In this document: one piece after another, positions 9,783 to 54,699 of the stretch
Layout of the letters: the number at the start of each line of letters is the position of its first letter
Position numbering within the stretch: position 1 is the stretch's first letter
Source: an uncultured Lachnospiraceae bacterium
GTDB lineage: Bacteria > Bacillota > Clostridia > Lachnospirales > Lachnospiraceae
NCBI GenBank assembly: GCA_910585255.1
Contig: CAJUEI010000003.1
Span: 2,782 to 66,781, forward strand
Length of the DNA stretch: 64,000 nucleotides
Reading direction: 5' to 3'
Notes under the pieces: generated by a model
What the model saw: the letters and a program-made list of their open reading frames with translations, nothing else
Databases searched by the model: none
What the model was told of the DNA's origin: nothing
Position numbers and translations under genes: made by a program

Positions 9783-9822
9783 AGGGAAAGAGGTCGATAG
9801 CGAGAGGTGGTTCCGAGGGGAC

Positions 9823-10066
9823 GATAGATGGGGAAGGCATCTTCTCACTGATACTCCGGTCTCCAGAAAGTAAGAAGTTCTAAGACTTCTGCATATTGGT
9901 GCATCCAGCCGGACGGACCGGGGTGCAATTCGCCCGTGCAACGGGCTAAACACACCCCTTTTTCGGGCACAAGTGCCCTCAAATCCTTTGTTTTCTAGCA
10001 GAAGTCAAAAACTTCTAACTTTCTTCCGAAGTCGTATCAGTGGGAAGATGCCTCCCCCATCTATCT
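9823..10066 (+). repeat. Copy A of a ~243-nt hairpin-forming intergenic element (long imperfect inverted arms plus a conserved asymmetric core)
   Basis: The arm at 9823-9892 pairs with 9998-10066. The core contains GGGGTGCAATTCGCCCGTGCAACGGGCTAAACACACCCCTTTTT. Related copies lie at 13752-13996 (inverted) and 24741-24981. Confidence 0.8.
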
Positions 10067-10181
10067 GTTTTCTGGATTAATAGGATGGTGGATTAGAGGT
10101 AAGAGAGAGTATGAGGAATTTTATTGTTTGGTTTAGGTAGGGATGGTTGGAGATTAAAAGATTACTGGAGATTAGGAAATT

Positions 10182-13565: not shown

Positions 13566-13751
13566 AAAAAGGAAATTCAGAATCTACTCCGCCACTTCCT
13601 CATAATCCCATGCTGCTATTGCAGCTTGTCAGATGGGACTTGCACCCTACCTGACACAAGGAAGTCCCTCAACCCACCGCTTTCGCCTTCACGGCTTAGA
13701 AACAGGGGACTTCCTCGATAGGTTAAAAAATGTACATTGCTGAAAAAACAA

Positions 13752-13996
13752 CCGGGTTTTGGAATTGGTCTTTTTCTGCTGTGACTTCGGAAGAAAGTTA
13801 GAAGGTCTTAGGCTTCTGCTCAAAAATCAGGATTTTTTGCCATCATCTGATGGCAAAAAAAGGGGTGTGTTTAGCCTCCTGCAGAGGCGAATTGCACCCC
13901 GTTCCGTCTGGTTGGATGCATGTTCCTGCAGAAGCCTTAGTCCTTCTTACTTTCTGGAGAGCGGAACAGCAGAAAAAGACCAATTCCAAAACCTGG
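13752..13996 (-). repeat. Copy B of the ~243-nt hairpin element, inverted relative to copies A and C
   Basis: The arm at 13752-13819 pairs with 13928-13996. The reverse complement of the core reads GGGGTGCAATTCGCCTCTGCAGGAGGCTAAACACACCCCTTTTTTT. Confidence 0.8.
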
Positions 13997-14144
13997 TGTC
14001 CTGCCCGGAAAAATCCAATAGGCAGAAAATAGATGCAGTAAGATACCAATCTTACCCCCAGTATTCTGCCCAAAAACACTTTTCCAGATTAAACCAGAGA
14101 CGAAAAATCAAAACCAAAACTAATTTAAGAAGGGACCCGTAAAA

Positions 14145-16060: not shown

Positions 16061-18854
16061 TTTTTTAAAGGCGAACTGGCCAATTCTTCTGGGAATTTTT
16101 GGGGCGGTTCTTTATGTATATCGGGATATGATCTTTGGGGTATACCGCTTGTCTTACTCAAATCTAGTTTATCGTATGATGCCTTGGAAAAGTCTGGGAG
16201 TAGCTACAAAGGGACCGATTCTTTCGGATACGATGGACAACCTGATTCAGACTATTTTTTCTACGATGAGAAGCGGAGAACCTTATCAGTTTTGGAACAA
16301 TATGATTGGAATGGGGGCAAAAGAAGATATTTCGATTGTGATGTACCCGCTCTATCTGCTCTATCTGCTTCCGCTGGGGGCTGCTACCTTTATAAAATCG
16401 GTATTTCAGTTTATTATGGCATTTTTTGCAATGTATTGCCTGGTGCGGGAGTTTGGGTGCAGAAAACTGCCGTCAGTTGTGAGCGGAATTTTATATACAT
16501 TTTGTTCCTCATTAGTATGCTGGCATAGCTGGCCTCACAGCGATGTGGCGTTGTTTGCTCCTTTTGCATTTTTGCTGGTATGGCGGTTGGTTCAGAATCG
16601 GAAAGTATCGGACAGTATTTGGCTTGCATTCGTGCTTTATCTTATGCTGGCAGCAGGGATGCCGACTTTTGCTGCCTATTTTTTATATTTGCTGGGTCTT
16701 TGGATTGTGGTGCTTACGATTCACCGCTATCGGACAGAGATACGAAAGATTTTGGTGGTTTTTTGTGAATTCGGCAGCTCGGTTGTGATAGCAGGACTGA
16801 TGAGTTTTCCTTATACAGCACAGCTTTTGTTTTCAGTTGGTTCAAATGGCTATACTGAATCTAGGAGAAATCAGGGGTTTGATACATTGGAGACATTTTA
16901 TCTATCCCTTTCTTATTATCCAGACTGGACACAGGAATTAGCACGTCATTTTAATGAGTGTACCTTTTATATTGGAATGTTGGGGCTGATTTTGTTGCTC
17001 TGTACATTTATTCGGCTGCATAAGCGGAAGAATATTTGGTATTGGGCGGGAGCGGCGGTGGTGCTGCTGCTTTTAACTTATACACATACATTGGATTTTA
17101 TCTATACACGGCTGCCGGCTGTCAATACTTCGAATAAGTTTCGGGTACTGGTGCTTTTAAATTTTACGATTTCTATTCTTGCCGGGTTTCATATAGAGGA
17201 TTTGATAGAAAATCGGGCATACTATAAAAAACATTGGTATCTGTTCTTGCCGGCTGTTTTGATTGTACTGGGCGGATGGGTATATTTTTCTGAATTAGAT
17301 ATCAAGATGCTGTCAGAGACACTTACTGATACAAAAATCATTACACTGTGCTATATTTTGGCAAGTGCTCTGTGTTTGATTTTTTATGCATGGTGGGGGA
17401 GAAAGGAAATTTTAGCGGTGCTCTGTATAGTTGCTGTCTTGGATTTAGGAGGATTTGCCAGCAGCTATCTGCCCTTTATTGAAAAGGGAGAAAAGGATGT
17501 TCCCGATCCGACTGATTCCATTGCCTACCTGCAGGAACATACGCCGAATGGGGAGCGGATTACGGCAGTGGATACCTGGACGCTGTTTCCAAATATGAAT
17601 GTGTTTTATGGGCTAAAGGATACTCGTTCACATAATTTAATTAATACGAATCCAGATTTGACGTTGTACTTTACGGTAATGGATGAGTGGTATTATACAA
17701 CGCCGACTCGGACGGCTGTCTGGGAGATTCAGAATTATAATCTGTTAAAATATCTGGGGGTGAAGTATATTGCGGATACGACCAAGTATGAGACAGAGGT
17801 CTATGTAGAGAATCGGGACGGACAGACTTCTGTAGGGGATCTGCATGGAGAAAAGTATGTAAGGCAGACGTTTACGGTAGAGAGGGACGGATTTTCATCT
17901 CTTCAGATACAGGCGGCTACGTTTGGAAACGTCTATGACAGTTTGGAGGAGCTTCGGGTGCAGCTGACCGAGAAGGGCAGCGGACGGGTGATTTGTGAAG
18001 AGGCATACCCGCTTGCTACATTTCAGGATAATGATTATCTATTAATGGAGTTTGATACGGTTGCTGATTCGGCAGGGAGGGTCTATGAATTGTATATTTA
18101 TAATTCGGCACAGGACGAAAAGCTGCCGGTTACAGTGTGGCGTGCGGGAAAAGATGTATATAAGGGGGATTTAATTGTAAATGGAGAGACGGTGGATGGG
18201 GATTTGATTTTAATTGCCGGGTTTGTCAATGAGAATTGGATGCCTGTCTATGACGGAAAGGATGGTTTATTTATTAAACAGATGAATGAGTGGACAGAGC
18301 GATTTACGCTTTGTGATACGGCATTTATCGGGGATTCGGAGAAGACAACGATTGCTTGGATGGCAGAGGAGTTTTTGCCGCATACGGTGTTTATTTCTAC
18401 GGATTATTACAGCGGGAGCGTGACGGAAGCACAGTTGTGGGATCGGGTGGATACCGTAAAATCGACTGATCCACGCAATGCACCTTATGGACGGATTGCG
18501 TTTTCGAAGTTGGGGGAGGAGGAGCAGGTTACGCTGGTTTCGGAGCGGGATGACTGTACCGTTTTGGAGGTTTCGGTTTCGGAGGGAAGGTTTTTGCTGT
18601 TTAATGAGTATTATGATGATGAGTGGGCGGTTTATATCGATGGAGAGAGAGCGGAGTTGTTAAAGGCGAATTTTTTGATGCGGGCGGTTTATCTGCCGGA
18701 GAGGGGAGTACATCAGGTGGAGTTTCGGTATGAGCCGGTATCGGTTTGGAGGATGATTGGGGTTGCTGGGTGCGGCGTGTTGATTTTATTGGGGGTTTTG
18801 GTGTTTCGGAGGAGGATTCAAATGGGGGTGGATAGGGTTTCAAATAGGAGATAG
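16035..18854 (+). CDS. YfhO-family GT-C membrane glycosyltransferase
   Basis: 939 aa, with many N-terminal TM helices, a large extracytoplasmic C-terminal domain and a final TM anchor. This architecture, and the pairing with a CsbB-like GT2, is typical of YfhO. Confidence 0.75.
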   Translation: MMQKKKINNFLKANWPILLGIFGAVLYVYRDMIFGVYRLSYSNLVYRMMPWKSLGVATKGPILSDTMDNLIQTIFSTMRSGEPYQFWNNMIGMGAKEDISIVMYPLYLLYLLPLGAATFIKSVFQFIMAFFAMYCLVREFGCRKLPSVVSGILYTFCSSLVCWHSWPHSDVALFAPFAFLLVWRLVQNRKVSDSIWLAFVLYLMLAAGMPTFAAYFLYLLGLWIVVLTIHRYRTEIRKILVVFCEFGSSVVIAGLMSFPYTAQLLFSVGSNGYTESRRNQGFDTLETFYLSLSYYPDWTQELARHFNECTFYIGMLGLILLLCTFIRLHKRKNIWYWAGAAVVLLLLTYTHTLDFIYTRLPAVNTSNKFRVLVLLNFTISILAGFHIEDLIENRAYYKKHWYLFLPAVLIVLGGWVYFSELDIKMLSETLTDTKIITLCYILASALCLIFYAWWGRKEILAVLCIVAVLDLGGFASSYLPFIEKGEKDVPDPTDSIAYLQEHTPNGERITAVDTWTLFPNMNVFYGLKDTRSHNLINTNPDLTLYFTVMDEWYYTTPTRTAVWEIQNYNLLKYLGVKYIADTTKYETEVYVENRDGQTSVGDLHGEKYVRQTFTVERDGFSSLQIQAATFGNVYDSLEELRVQLTEKGSGRVICEEAYPLATFQDNDYLLMEFDTVADSAGRVYELYIYNSAQDEKLPVTVWRAGKDVYKGDLIVNGETVDGDLILIAGFVNENWMPVYDGKDGLFIKQMNEWTERFTLCDTAFIGDSEKTTIAWMAEEFLPHTVFISTDYYSGSVTEAQLWDRVDTVKSTDPRNAPYGRIAFSKLGEEEQVTLVSERDDCTVLEVSVSEGRFLLFNEYYDDEWAVYIDGERAELLKANFLMRAVYLPERGVHQVEFRYEPVSVWRMIGVAGCGVLILLGVLVFRRRIQMGVDRVSNRR

Positions 18855-18894
18855 ATGGTTTGGGTAGGTTTCAAATGGGAGACAGATGGTTTGG
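18835..18894 (+). repeat. Tandem ~30-bp duplication spanning the yfhO-like stop codon
   Basis: GGGTTTCAAATAGGAGATAGATGGTTTGG (18835-18863) is followed by AGGTTTCAAATGGGAGACAGATGGTTTGG (18866-18894). Confidence 0.7.
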
Positions 18895-18908
18895 ATAGTA
18901 GTCAGGAC

Positions 18909-19048
18909 GCAGACAGCCTAGAGGGAATCTCTGCTGGGGCCGTTTGCACTAAGGCTTCCTCGCAGCGGGCACATAAGATGCTAAAAGACAGCATCTAAGT
19001 GCCGGCGGGAAGCAATACCCCTGCAGAGATTCCCTCTAGGCTGTCTGC
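18909..19048. repeat. ~140-nt long imperfect palindrome (a second type of hairpin element)
   Basis: GCAGACAGCCTAGAGGGAATCTCTGC (from 18909) is the reverse complement of GCAGAGATTCCCTCTAGGCTGTCTGC (ending at 19048). An inner hairpin reads GGCACATAAGATGCT...AGCATCTAAGTGCC. Confidence 0.75.
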
Positions 19049-19210
19049 TGTGTGTTCCGGGCGGTATGAAATCTTTATGAGAAGTGGAGACGTGGGATAT
19101 TTCGGGGGTAATGAAAGATAGATTGTTTTTGGTGGTTGGAAGGGAAAGGAGAAGATGCTCTTTCTATTTAAAGATAGTTTAAGAATAGTTGGGTGTGCGG
19201 AGGGTGTTTT

Positions 19211-24688: not shown

Positions 24689-24740
24689 ATGGGGGAGATT
24701 GGGAGATTAGGAGGGAATTGACAGTGGGGGAGGGGACGCT

Positions 24741-24981
24741 AGAGTGGGGAAGTGCTCCCTTCCTGCTGTTCCGCTCTCCGAAAAGTAAGAAAGTCTTATG
24801 CCTCTGAGTCTGGATGCATCCAACCGGACGAACCGGCACGCAATTCGCCTCTGCAGGAGGCTAAACACGTGCCTTTTTTTGTCATCAGGAGATGACAAAA
24901 AATTCTAGGGAGCTGACAGAGGCATAAGACTTTCTTACTTTTCTCCGAAGTTACAGCAGGAAGGGAGCACTTTCCCACTCT
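24741..24981 (+). repeat. Copy C of the ~243-nt hairpin element
   Basis: The arm at 24741-24806 pairs with 24917-24981. The core reads GGCACGCAATTCGCCTCTGCAGGAGGCTAAACACGTGCCTTTTTTT followed by GTCATCAGGAGATGAC. Confidence 0.8.
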
Positions 24982-25155
24982 GGCTGTTTTTTTCTGCTTG
25001 TAGAGTTGTTGTGGGTGTGCCTTTGGATTATTGGATTGTGTTTGATTGGGGATGATAGAGTGTTTGTTGGGGTGCAGCGGTGGTTAGGGAAAATCCTTTG
25101 TTTTTAGGCATGGGGTGTGTCAATAGAATGGATAGAGTAAGTGAGGAAATTTGGA

Positions 25156-50455: not shown

Positions 50456-50716
50456 TTAAATTTCTATTTTATATGTTTCTTTAAGAATTTCAATTCCTTT
50501 TTCATAGGAACTGAGATCAATAATATCGTCAGTATCCATTGTAATTTCAAAACTGTCTTCTAATTCTGCAATTAAGGACATATGACCGACAGAATCCCAT
50601 TCTGGAATACTCATATACTCTAAGCCAGTTAGTTTATTTTTTTCAATTGCAAATGTTTCCATAAAAGCTGCATCATATTTTTCCCTATTAGTCATAATTA
50701 AGTTCCTCTCTTTCAA
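50456..50716 (-). CDS. Acyl/peptidyl carrier protein (ACP-1)
   Basis: 86 aa, acidic. EWDSVGHMSLIAELE contains the phosphopantetheine serine context. Confidence 0.75.
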   Translation of the reverse strand: MKERNLIMTNREKYDAAFMETFAIEKNKLTGLEYMSIPEWDSVGHMSLIAELEDSFEITMDTDDIIDLSSYEKGIEILKETYKIEI

Positions 50717-54453: not shown

Positions 54454-54699
54454 ATGACAAATTATGAAAAATATGTAGAAGCATTTAAAACAGGGCTTGG
54501 CATTGATGGAGATAAGGTAACAAAGGAGTTGACATATCAATCTGTAATGGAATGGGATTCAGTAGGGCATATGGAATTAGTTGCTGAATTGGAAGAAGTA
54601 TTTAACATTTCTATGGATACGGATGATATTGTTGACTTTAATTCATTTGAGGCAGGAATAAAGATCCTTAAAAAATATAATATAAAGATTGAGGAATAA
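54454..54699 (+). CDS. Acyl/peptidyl carrier protein (ACP-2), paralogue of ACP-1
   Basis: 81 aa. EWDSVGHMELVAELEEVF...MDTDDIVDF is closely parallel to the 50456-50716 product. RBS GGAGGAAG. Confidence 0.75.
   Translation: MTNYEKYVEAFKTGLGIDGDKVTKELTYQSVMEWDSVGHMELVAELEEVFNISMDTDDIVDFNSFEAGIKILKKYNIKIEE

What the first reader, a model, noticed from the sequence alone, without database searches (positions are those of the whole stretch)
9823..10066. Family of ~243-nt hairpin-forming intergenic elements punctuating the glycan locus (copy A; family description)
**Copies and architecture**
- Three copies share one architecture: 9823-10066, 13752-13996 (inverted) and 24741-24981.
- Each has about 65-70-nt imperfect inverted arms enclosing an asymmetric core of about 100 nt. 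The core consensus is ...GCATCCA(A/G)CC(G/A)GACG(G/A)ACCGG - helix - TTTTT - small hairpin.
- Each copy sits exactly at a gene-module boundary: after the GT2, after the flippase-like gene, and after the LCP gene.

**Why this does not look like a MITE**
- The distal parts of the arms differ between copies but remain self-complementary within each copy.
- A MITE would be expected to show the opposite, with termini conserved between copies. The pattern instead resembles selection on a structure.

**Consequence for ORF calling**
- The spurious ORFs in the track that cross these copies all translate a shared peptide of the form LQRRIAPRSVWLDA.
Basis: seen in the sequence. Interest (0 to 1): 0.75.

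Follow-up and report, generated by a model that had tools for sequence, protein, structure and literature searches.

The report
Repeated hairpin DNA elements between genes
The three ~250-base hairpin-forming stretches are real; they belong to a many-copy family of gut Lachnospiraceae repeats already catalogued as the "TwoAYGGAY RNA" motif, and they look more like small mobile DNA hairpins that can stop transcription than like a dedicated regulatory RNA.

Summary
Three homologous ~250-nt elements lie at 9819-10073 (+), 13743-14001 (-) and 24734-24993 (+). Each folds into a 65-70-bp stem around an asymmetric three-hairpin core (z -11 to -15).

They are not new in kind. With permissive filters, Rfam RF01731 (TwoAYGGAY) hits copies A and B at 59.6 and 65.0 bits (cut-off 43). 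The name-giving AYGGAY loops are absent, and copy C is missed.

The family is multi-copy. One Lachnospiraceae MAG holds at least 27 full copies in 107 kb, in two subfamilies that form fixed doublets, alongside deletion derivatives. Relatives of the window's organism carry different elements at the same gene junctions.

Covariation is strong: 97% of cells are paired, 48 of 84 pairs change on both sides, and 0 of 500 shuffles reach this. It is almost purely Watson-Crick.

A second hairpin family with another core shares this terminal design, including one copy at 18905-19052.

My best reading is a MITE/REPIN-like mobile hairpin. Only the distal stem is free to vary, provided it pairs. In the orientation of A and C it also carries a canonical terminator (hairpin plus U5-7).

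The parts
9819..10073 (+). Copy A, whole element. Strand is given in 'element orientation', with the GGAC terminus as the 5' end. The Rfam TwoAYGGAY match lies on the opposite strand at 9859-10030.
   Evidence: (I8).
13743..14001 (-). Copy B, whole element, inverted relative to A and C. The Rfam TwoAYGGAY match is on the + strand at 13786-13961.
   Evidence: (I7).
24734..24993 (+). Copy C, whole element. It is homologous to A and B but is not detected by the Rfam model.
   Evidence: (I10).
9819..9828 (+). Copy A left terminus, GGACGATAGA. The family consensus is GGACRCYAGA, and a G-rich flank precedes it.
   Evidence: Conserved in all 31 aligned copies.
9823..9854 (+). Copy A left distal stem. 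It is hypervariable between copies and pairs with 10034-10065.
   Evidence: I8, 94% complementary.
9865..9892 (+). Copy A left inner arm, conserved in sequence (AGAAAGTAAGAAGTTCTAAGACTTCTGC). It pairs with 9998-10023.
   Evidence: (helices 2-3).
9920..9963 (+). Copy A hairpin 2 (GGGGTG..CACCCC with the conserved internal loop CAATTC/TAAACA) followed by T5. In this orientation it has the form of an intrinsic terminator.
   Evidence: -20.2 kcal/mol plus U5. The stem covaries with copy C (GGCACG/CGTGCC).
9964..9978 (+). Copy A hairpin 3, a small hairpin whose stem differs between copies but stays paired.
   Evidence: helix 6.
9998..10023 (+). Copy A right inner arm.
10034..10065 (+). Copy A right distal stem.
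   Evidence: I8.
10059..10073 (+). Copy A right terminus and T-rich tail, ATCTATCTGTTTTCT. The family consensus is TCTRGCTGTTT.
18905..19052 (+). A related 'family 2' hairpin element. It has the same terminal design (GGACGC.. / ..GCTGTGT) and a complementary variable distal stem, but an unrelated core. It lies after the 939-aa gene.
   Evidence: (I9). No Rfam family matches it.

Best explanation
**What it is**
- The three copies belong to a multi-copy, non-coding, palindromic intergenic repeat family of gut Lachnospiraceae.
- By sequence and architecture it is the Bacillota branch of the Rfam 'TwoAYGGAY RNA' motif (RF01731).
- Here it lacks the AYGGAY loops and has an extra ~32-bp distal stem. 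Some genomes also carry a ~75-nt insertion in one hairpin.

**How I think it works**
- I read it as a mobile, or recently mobile, DNA hairpin element of the MITE/REPIN kind.
- The two non-identical termini and the core are the sequence-specific parts, presumably recognised by a mobilising or binding protein.
- The distal stem only has to pair.
- Its arms are kept exactly complementary at the DNA level. Either template switching or gene conversion within the quasi-palindrome does this, or a hairpin in single-stranded DNA is needed for mobilisation.

**Effect on transcription**
- In the orientation of A and C (the same sense as the upstream gene), the transcript meets an -18 to -20 kcal/mol hairpin followed by U5-7. 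That is an intrinsic terminator, so these copies probably end or attenuate the upstream transcript.
- In the opposite orientation (B), no terminator is read. The whole 65-70-bp hairpin would form in the RNA, where it could act as a processing or stability site.

**Shown versus inferred**
- Shown: family membership, copy number, conserved termini, Watson-Crick covariation, turnover between relatives, and the terminator-like sequence.
- Inferred: the mobilisation mechanism, DNA-level maintenance of the arms, and actual termination.
For: **Known family**
- RF01731 hits copy A at 59.6 bits, copy B at 65.0 bits and L012 at 70.2 bits, against a cut-off of 43. All three are full-length matches to the model.
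- The literature describes TwoAYGGAY as multi-copy, with divergent doublets, as mobile-like, and with an elongated basal stem in Bacillota (bioRxiv 10.64898/2026.09.22.753630).

**Copy number**
- Those loci hold at least 27 full copies in 107 kb.

**Mobile-like organisation**
- Two subfamilies form fixed pairs across a conserved spacer. The pairs are convergent in element orientation, which is divergent in Rfam orientation.
- A core-less derivative and collapsed derivatives exist.
- Assemblies break inside the elements.

**Termini**
- The termini are conserved.
- A second family with another core shares the same terminal design.

**Turnover between relatives**
- Relatives whose LCP protein is 90% identical carry a family-2 copy at a junction that is empty in the window.
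- At the LCP-RecQ junction they carry different elements in a different orientation.
- More distant relatives have none.

**Covariation**
- 97.1% of cells are paired, 48 of 84 pairs change on both sides (375 cells), and 0 of 500 shuffles reach this. Slid controls give 40-52% paired.
- One-sided (G-U type) changes are rare inside the stems.

**Gene context and terminator**
- Eleven of 14-16 singleton copies are co-oriented with the gene whose stop codon lies 5-100 nt upstream.
- Hairpin 2 plus the U-tract has terminator form.
- No consistent promoter lies next to the window copies.
Against: **Mobility is not proven**
- No target-site duplication or clean empty site was seen.
- No partner transposase was identified.
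- No phage, plasmid or viral copies were found.
- Near-identical strains all keep A, B and C, so there is no evidence of very recent movement.

**The core looks RNA-like**
- It has conserved unpaired nucleotides and small covarying helices, as a structured RNA would.

**Strand asymmetry gives mixed signals**
- Inside the stems, A-C outnumbers G-U 40 to 14 in element orientation, which favours the Rfam strand.
- At the stem base there are 58 G-U against 8 A-C, which favours the other strand.
- These counts are not independent events: 18 columns against 11.

**Limits of the covariation sample**
- Twenty-six of the 31 aligned copies come from one genome, so the covariation cells are not independent events.

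**The terminator reading does not cover all copies**
- It does not explain copy B or the other antisense copies.
Confidence: 0.55

Rival explanations
1. The element is a gene for, or part of, a structured RNA whose fold is under selection. It would be read on the Rfam strand (antisense to the upstream gene for A and C) and act in trans, for example by binding or sequestering a protein such as CsrA.
For: - RF01731 matches above the cut-off on one strand only.
- The core has conserved unpaired nucleotides and a multi-helix junction.
- The small inner helices covary.
- Intermediate states inside the stems are mostly G-U on the Rfam strand (40 against 14).
- The conserved CAATTC/TAAACA loop becomes mostly paired through G-U pairs on that strand (read from the sequence).
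- The CsrA-sponge hypothesis for this family is published (PMC4333381).
Against: **GGA loop motifs are absent or on the wrong strand**
- AYGGAY or GGA loop motifs are absent from A and B and are not conserved.
- In the MAG copies the AUGGAA loop lies on the opposite strand.

**No signals for an independent transcript**
- No promoter or terminator signals suit such a transcript in the window copies.

**Pairing and copy pattern do not fit**
- Stems are about 97% Watson-Crick, with 0.6-1.8% wobble pairs.
- The 32-bp distal stem lies outside the Rfam model.
- Dozens of copies with deletion derivatives fit a repeat better than a gene.
- One strain variant has lost the hairpin-2 tip and 'hairpin 1' while keeping intact arms.
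Confidence: 0.2
2. The element is a domesticated cis-acting 'punctuation' device. Its main role is as a transcription terminator, insulator and mRNA 3'-end protection or RNase III processing hairpin that divides long operons such as the glycan locus into modules. The copies persist because of that role, whatever their origin.
For: - Copies sit 5-183 nt after stop codons, often leaving no room for another terminator.
- Most singleton copies are co-oriented with the upstream gene.
- Hairpin 2 plus U5-7 has terminator form, and the T-run is invariant in 31 copies.
- A T-rich tail follows the giant hairpin.
- Doublets would terminate transcription in both directions.
Against: - B and several other copies are antisense to both neighbours, and in that direction no hairpin is followed by a U-run.
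- A terminator does not need 65-bp arms, conserved termini or a conserved multi-hairpin core.
- Relatives lack elements at the same junctions, so they are dispensable there.
- The T-run is also paired with a conserved A-run in hairpin 3, so its conservation is ambiguous.
Confidence: 0.15
3. The element is a recombination site that marks exchangeable gene cassettes, like an integron attC site or another structured single-strand recombination site. Modules of the glycan locus would be swapped or inverted at these hairpins.
For: - Like attC sites, the elements are imperfect palindromes with conserved ends and a variable paired middle, and they lie at gene boundaries.
- One strain (sample ERZ779632) differs from the window from inside the distal arm of B to 100 nt beyond it.
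- The LCP-RecQ junction is variable among relatives.
Against: - No RYYYAAC/GTTRRRY core sites are present (read from the sequence).
- The elements are 250-335 nt long, against 57-141 nt for attC (general knowledge).
- No integrase was found among the ORFs scanned.
- Copies lie next to unrelated housekeeping-type genes all over a genome.
- The ERZ779632 contigs have only 1.6-2.4x coverage and may be chimeric.
Confidence: 0.04

Closest known systems
TwoAYGGAY RNA motif (Rfam RF01731; Weinberg et al. 2010, PMC2864571; extended in bioRxiv 10.64898/2026.09.22.753630)
   Same: - Copies A and B score above the family cut-off over the full model.
- Both have a basal stem carrying two successive hairpins.
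- The host range matches: human gut and Clostridiales.
- Both are multi-copy, with doublets that are divergent in Rfam orientation.
- Bacillota members are reported to have an elongated basal stem.
   Different: - Neither terminal loop carries AYGGAY.
- There is an extra ~32-bp hypervariable distal stem, plus conserved termini outside the Rfam model.
- Copy C, copy D and the ~335-nt insertion variants are not detected by the model.
- The Pseudomonas-type extensions and upstream 5-mer arrays were not seen.
MITEs with long hairpins that are co-transcribed, such as Neisseria Correia elements and enterobacterial ERIC, and REPIN/REP elements (from my own knowledge)
   Same: - Small, non-coding and multi-copy.
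- Nearly palindromic and intergenic, usually just downstream of genes.
- Conserved ends.
- Can act as terminators or RNase III targets when transcribed.
- REPINs also keep their hairpin through compensated changes.
   Different: - No target-site duplication was seen.
- The termini are not true inverted copies of each other (GGAC.. versus ..TGTTT).
- The core is large, asymmetric and conserved.
- No matching transposase or RAYT has been identified.
Rho-independent (intrinsic) terminators
   Same: In one orientation there is a G+C-rich hairpin of -18 to -20 kcal/mol directly followed by 5-8 U. It is placed shortly after stop codons.
   Different: - The terminator-like hairpin is embedded in a much larger palindrome.
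- It occurs in the antisense orientation in several copies.
- The U-run is also one strand of the next hairpin.
Integron attC sites
   Same: Both are structured, imperfect palindromes at gene boundaries whose middle varies in sequence but keeps its pairing.
   Different: - No R/L core motifs are present.
- The elements are much longer.
- No integron integrase is nearby.
- They are not arranged as a cassette array.

Membership tests
TwoAYGGAY RNA (RF01731) | Covariance-model score at or above the Rfam gathering cut-off (43 bits) | tested here: met
   - Copy A scores 59.6 bits, B 65.0 bits and L012 70.2 bits, each over model positions 1-168 of 168.
- These hits appear only with permissive filters. 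The default gathering scan of the 64-kb window missed them.
TwoAYGGAY RNA (RF01731) | The same cut-off applied to copy C, to the related copy D (L011) and to a ~335-nt MAG copy | tested here: not met
   There is no RF01731 hit even at E<=10. They are linked to the family only through their clear homology to A and B.
TwoAYGGAY RNA (RF01731) | [quoted passage not shown] | tested here: met
   Seen in the folds, in the cmscan alignment to the consensus structure, and in the covarying helices 4-6.
TwoAYGGAY RNA (RF01731) | AYGGAY in both terminal loops | tested here: not met
   **On the Rfam strand**
- The hairpin-2 loop is UUGCA or CUGCA.
- The hairpin-3 loop is UU in A, AUCU in B and UCCU in C.

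**On the opposite strand**
- One short copy (C) has AGGA.
- The MAG copies have AUGGAA.
TwoAYGGAY RNA (RF01731) | Multi-copy, with an excess of divergent doublets (as described in the 2026 preprint for Pseudomonas) | tested here: met
   - At least 27 copies were found in 14 loci of one MAG.
- Six complete doublets and three partly decayed or cut-off ones are all divergent in Rfam orientation.
- The window itself has singletons only.
MITE | Small, non-coding and present in many copies | tested here: met
   - The elements are 250-335 nt long.
- Only short ORFs in inconsistent frames cross them.
- Their translations find only 3 proteins among 5.8 billion.
MITE | Terminal inverted repeats conserved between copies | tested here: inconclusive
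   - The termini are conserved (GGACRCYAGA / TCTRGCTGTTT).
- The shared inverted part is only about 7 nt (GCCAGA / TCTGGC).
- The outermost bases differ (GGAC versus TGTTT).
MITE | Target-site duplication flanking each copy | tested here: not met
   - No direct repeat is seen at the edges of 31 copies or of the doublets.
- The one filled-versus-empty comparison is too diverged to decide.
MITE | Presence/absence polymorphism at orthologous sites | tested here: met
   - L045 and L046 (LCP 90% identical) carry different elements at two junctions. L047-L049 carry none.
- Near-identical strains do not differ.
MITE | An autonomous insertion sequence with matching ends | not tested
   - Whole genomes were not available.
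- The only transposase seen is an IS200/IS605 in L047, and its end region does not resemble the hairpin termini.
REPIN / REP-RAYT system | A hairpin made of two inverted REP sequences, plus a RAYT (Y1 HUH) gene in the genome | not tested
   The hairpin and the compensated changes resemble REPINs. No genome-wide search for a RAYT was possible.
Intrinsic terminator | A G+C-rich hairpin directly followed by a U-tract on the transcribed strand | tested here: met
   - Hairpin 2 folds at -18.1 to -20.2 kcal/mol and is followed by U5 (A) or U7 (B, C) in element orientation.
- For B this lies on the strand opposite to the neighbouring genes.
Intrinsic terminator | Transcripts end at the U-tract in vivo | not testable with these tools
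   This needs Term-seq or 3' RACE.
CsrA/Rsm-sequestering sRNA | Several GGA motifs presented in hairpin loops | tested here: not met
   - Copies A and B have no GGA in any terminal loop.
- No csrA gene was found among the window ORFs scanned, but that scan was not exhaustive.
Integron attC site | R''/R' core sites (RYYYAAC / GTTRRRY) and an integron integrase nearby | tested here: not met
   The motifs are absent from the termini. No integrase domain appears in the Pfam annotations of the locus.

The most novel reading that the evidence does not exclude
- The TwoAYGGAY-type core and the uncatalogued 'family 2' core would both be interchangeable cargo.
- They would sit in one superfamily of bacterial hairpin elements defined by shared asymmetric termini (GGACGC... 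/ ...GCTGTKT) and a free-to-vary, self-complementary distal stem.
- An as yet unidentified enzyme would move these elements through a folded single-stranded intermediate.
- That would recast the 'TwoAYGGAY RNA' of Bacillota as a new class of mobile DNA hairpin rather than an sRNA.
Probability: 0.25. Interest if true: 0.65.

Novelty: new variant of a known kind. Interest (0 to 1): 0.4.

Why it matters
TwoAYGGAY has been an orphan 'RNA motif' since 2010. Its only functional idea is a CsrA sponge, resting on the AYGGAY loops.

**What this lineage adds**
- It keeps the architecture but lacks those loops.
- Its covariation is Watson-Crick only.
- Its termini are conserved and shared with a second hairpin family.
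- It turns over between close relatives.

Together these points favour a DNA-level mobile hairpin and weaken the sponge idea, at least in Bacillota.

**Practical consequences**
- The elements break short-read assemblies.
- They produce spurious ORFs.
- They escape default Rfam scans.
- They probably terminate or structure transcripts inside surface-glycan and other operons of abundant gut bacteria.

The family as such, and its mobile-like behaviour, are already described, so the gain is incremental.

Tried and rejected
**Searches that returned nothing or were uninformative**
- The default Rfam gathering scan of the window found nothing. This was a false negative of the speed filters, corrected.
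- Three viral, phage and plasmid searches for the element found nothing.
- The simple terminator scan cannot see hairpins with long loops, so it was uninformative for the elements.
- No tRNA or tmRNA genes are present.

**Attempts to find more copies or empty sites**
- Searching proteins with the spurious ORF gave only two further copies.
- Near-identical strains all carry A, B and C, so they gave no empty site.
- The protein-based metagenome scan gave three loci without elements and one possible rearrangement.

**Ideas rejected**
- miRNA-family 'hits' (MIR2646, mir-786) are generic long-hairpin matches far below their cut-offs.
- The AAGAAGTTCTAAGACTTCT sub-palindrome as a protein operator: it is not conserved in copies B and C.
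- IS200/IS605 as the mobiliser: the end region of the only copy seen is unrelated.
- An attC site: the motifs are absent.
- The supplement of the 2026 preprint on Bacillota copies was not available.

Full report
**1.

- The three stretches at about 9819-10073, 13743-14001 (inverted) and 24734-24993 align over their whole length with 80% mean column identity.
- A 20-base core pattern occurs exactly three times in the window, against none in 100 shuffles. A profile built later from 31 copies finds no further copy in the window.
- Each copy has outer 32-nt arms that are 94-97% complementary (I7, I8, I10).
- As a single strand each folds into one 65-70-bp stem, interrupted by a conserved asymmetric internal loop. 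The stem encloses a core with up to three hairpins; the first of them is weak and is not kept in all copies.
- The folding energies are -132, -131 and -160 kcal/mol, with z-scores of -11.3, -13.9 and -15.0.
- The genes upstream are a GT2 glycosyltransferase, an LPG_synthase_TM ('flippase-like') protein and a LytR_cpsA_psr (LCP) protein.
- The shared peptide of the spurious ORFs is real for B and C and partial for A.

**2. It belongs to a known family**

- The default Rfam scan of the window was empty.
- With permissive filters, RF01731 (TwoAYGGAY RNA) matches copy A (9859-10030, minus strand, 59.6 bits) and copy B (13786-13961, plus strand, 65.0 bits). Both matches span the full 168-position model, and the cut-off is 43 bits.
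- A strain variant of B scores 70.2 bits.
- Shared unpaired residues support homology rather than a generic hairpin match. Examples are UUCGGAAG at the start, AAG between the hairpins, and the GCC/GGC and CGUC motifs.
- Copy C, a fourth copy from another metagenome (L011) and the long copies described below get no hit at all. The Rfam model therefore covers this lineage only patchily.
- The Rfam model spans only the inner arms and the core. The 32-bp distal stem and the termini lie outside it.
- The name-giving feature, AYGGAY in both terminal loops, is absent.
- TwoAYGGAY was reported in 2010 from human gut, Clostridiales and gamma-proteobacteria as a probable RNA of unknown function (PMC2864571).
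- It was later proposed as a CsrA sponge because of its loops (PMC4333381).
- A September 2026 preprint shows that in Pseudomonas it is multi-copy, variable in number, enriched as divergent doublets and 'mobile-element-like'. The preprint also says Bacillota members have an elongated basal stem (10.64898/2026.09.22.753630).

**3. The family is abundant and has internal organisation**

- Contigs from many metagenomes end inside copy A or B.
- Those 107 kb hold at least 27 full copies.
- There the element is about 335 nt long, because a variable ~75-nt domain replaces the tip of hairpin 2.
- Two subfamilies differ in their distal stems and tails. They occur as fixed pairs across a conserved ~100-nt spacer. 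The pairs are convergent in element orientation, which is divergent in Rfam orientation, as reported for Pseudomonas.
- Decay products exist:
  - a 126-nt copy with arms only;
  - two collapsed subfamily-2 remnants next to intact subfamily-1 copies.
- The window's organism is also a Lachnospiraceae bacterium, according to the source name of a 99% identical LCP protein.

**4.

- All 31 aligned copies start with GGACRCYAGA, preceded by a G-rich flank, and end with TCTRGCTGTTT.
- Mean pairwise identity by segment:

| Segment | Mean pairwise identity between copies |
|---|---|
| Termini | 0.80-0.89 |
| Inner arms | 0.83 |
| Flanks of hairpin 2 | 0.94-0.95 |
| Two distal stem segments | 0.46-0.47 |

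- The variable part is therefore an internal ~21-bp window of the stem, not the ends.
- A second, unrelated-core hairpin family has the same design: GGACGC..GA.. / ..TC..GCTGTGT plus a variable complementary stem.
  - One copy lies in the window at 18905-19052, after the 939-aa gene.
  - Several lie in the MAG, including a convergent doublet.
  - Two lie in a relative.
  - It matches no Rfam family.
- No target-site duplication is visible around any copy or doublet.

**5. Covariation is strong but of a particular kind**

- The test used the 31-copy alignment with a consensus structure of 84 pairs.
  - 97.1% of cells form standard pairs, against 81.8% in shuffles and 40-52% when partners are slid.
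  - 48 pairs show changes on both sides, in 375 cells.
  - No shuffle out of 500 reaches the observed values.
- In the distal stem most pairs occur as three or four different Watson-Crick types.
- Closely related copies differ by several compensated double changes. Examples are AAAACCCTAGG/CCTAGGGTTTT, AAACCCCTAGG/CCTAGGGGTTT and AAAACTCCAGG/CCTGGAGTTTT.
- One-sided changes are rare. Inside the stems there are 14 G-U and 40 A-C cells among about 2200 Watson-Crick cells.
- RNA helices under selection usually tolerate many G-U pairs (general knowledge). An almost purely Watson-Crick pattern is instead what one expects in either of two cases:
  - both DNA strands must form the hairpin;
  - one arm is copied from the other, by template switching or gene conversion within quasi-palindromes, a known mutational process.
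- The strand signal is mixed.
  - The 40:14 excess of A-C in element orientation equals an excess of G-U on the Rfam strand. It rests on 18 columns against 11 and on non-independent copies.
  - The base of the stem carries 58 G-U against 8 A-C on the other strand.
- Caveats: 26 of the 31 aligned copies come from one genome, and the shuffle control ignores relatedness.

**6. Turnover between relatives**

- Near-identical strains all keep A, B and C. The differences are small:
  - the window's copy A carries two arm mismatches that are absent in strains L002 and L003;
  - strains L002 and L006 carry a cluster of eight G>A/C>T changes in 'hairpin 1' and a 9-nt deletion of the hairpin-2 tip, with intact arms.
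- A relative with a 90% identical LCP protein (L045/L046) differs at two junctions:
  - it has a family-2 element starting 2-3 nt after the stop codon of the sugar-transferase gene, where the window has none;
  - between LCP and RecQ it has a family-2 copy and a long family-1 copy in the opposite orientation, where the window has the short copy C.
- Relatives at 87% and 78% identity have no element after LCP.
- This is gain/loss polymorphism. The flanks are too diverged to define exact insertion ends.
- One low-coverage strain (sample ERZ779632) differs from the window from inside B's distal arm to 100 nt beyond it. This is either a rearrangement at the element or an assembly chimera.

**7. 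Position and transcription**

- In the MAG and the window the elements lie 5-183 nt after stop codons.
- Eleven of 14-16 singleton copies are co-oriented (element orientation) with the upstream gene. B and a few others are antisense.
- In element orientation, hairpin 2 (-18 to -20 kcal/mol) is directly followed by U5-7, the form of an intrinsic terminator.
  - The T-run is invariant in the alignment.
  - It also pairs with an A-run in hairpin 3.
- On the opposite strand no hairpin is followed by a U-run, so the whole giant hairpin would be transcribed.
- No consistent promoter accompanies the window copies.
- The + strand has strong positive GC skew throughout. The orientation bias relative to genes therefore cannot be separated from a bias relative to replication.

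**8. Verdict**

However, the element is a variant of a catalogued family whose repeat-like, mobile-like nature has been described.
- The best-supported reading is a MITE/REPIN-like mobile hairpin:
  - sequence-constrained termini and core;
  - a structurally constrained, freely drifting distal stem;
  - a built-in terminator in one orientation.
- The structured-sRNA reading remains possible, mainly because of the conserved multi-helix core. It loses its main functional argument here, because the AYGGAY loops are missing.
- The novelty lies in four points: the loop-less Lachnospiraceae variant, the hypervariable stem between conserved asymmetric termini, the insertion variant, and the sister family with another core.

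Noticed in passing
window 18905-19052; also L024 1260-1408 and 1488-1650, L015 513-627 and 4849-4977, L045 3731-3879 and 5175-5322: A second hairpin family of about 148 nt. It has the same terminal design and a variable complementary distal stem as the reported family, but an unrelated conserved core. It is multi-copy, forms a convergent doublet in the MAG, and matches no Rfam family.
   Followed up: partly
window 13600-13745, minus strand: The stretch between the flippase-like gene and copy B folds into a three-hairpin structure (-54.6 kcal/mol, z -3.9). Five independent assemblies end at about 13630-13665, which hints at another repeated or structured element. It has no Rfam match and no other copy in the loci held.
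   Followed up: partly
L002 and L006, orthologues of window 9905-9945: In two strains copy A carries eight clustered G>A / C>T changes that erase 'hairpin 1', plus a 9-nt deletion of the hairpin-2 tip. The long arms stay intact. This looks like local hypermutation or conversion from another copy.
   Followed up: no
L012 and L027 (sample ERZ779632), against window 13976-14101: These contigs match the window up to a point inside B's distal arm and again from 14102, but carry different sequence in between. This is either a rearrangement with a breakpoint in the element or a chimeric low-coverage assembly (1.6-2.4x).
   Followed up: partly
L049 5162-7033; L047 5268-7952: The LCP-RecQ junction is a variable spot among relatives. 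One relative has an AAA_15 plus DUF3226 gene pair there. Another has a hexapeptide transferase and a chemoreceptor in place of RecQ.
   Followed up: no
window 10074-10181, 24690-24733, 24994-25140: The long intergenic stretches around the elements are strikingly purine-rich on the coding strand, with repeated GGAG/GGGA/GATTAG-like words. The same G-rich run directly precedes the GGAC terminus of most copies.
   Followed up: no
window 18836-18897: Two tandem copies of a 31-nt unit, 90% identical, lie at the very end of the 939-aa ORF, just upstream of the family-2 hairpin.
   Followed up: no
window about 28000-64000: G+C drops from about 0.42 to about 0.30 at roughly 28 kb. The region holds FlaG, FliD, FliS and a flagellin, followed by many sugar and fatty-acid-type genes, so it is probably a flagellin-glycosylation island. 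It contains none of the hairpin elements. A 126-nt inverted pair (50477-50602 / 54550-54675, 73% complementary) brackets a 3.9-kb minus-strand module.
   Followed up: no
L047 8642-9137: A relative carries an IS200/IS605-type tnpA (Y1_Tnp) plus tnpB about 3.5 kb from the LCP gene. The sequence upstream of it does not resemble the hairpin termini.
   Followed up: partly
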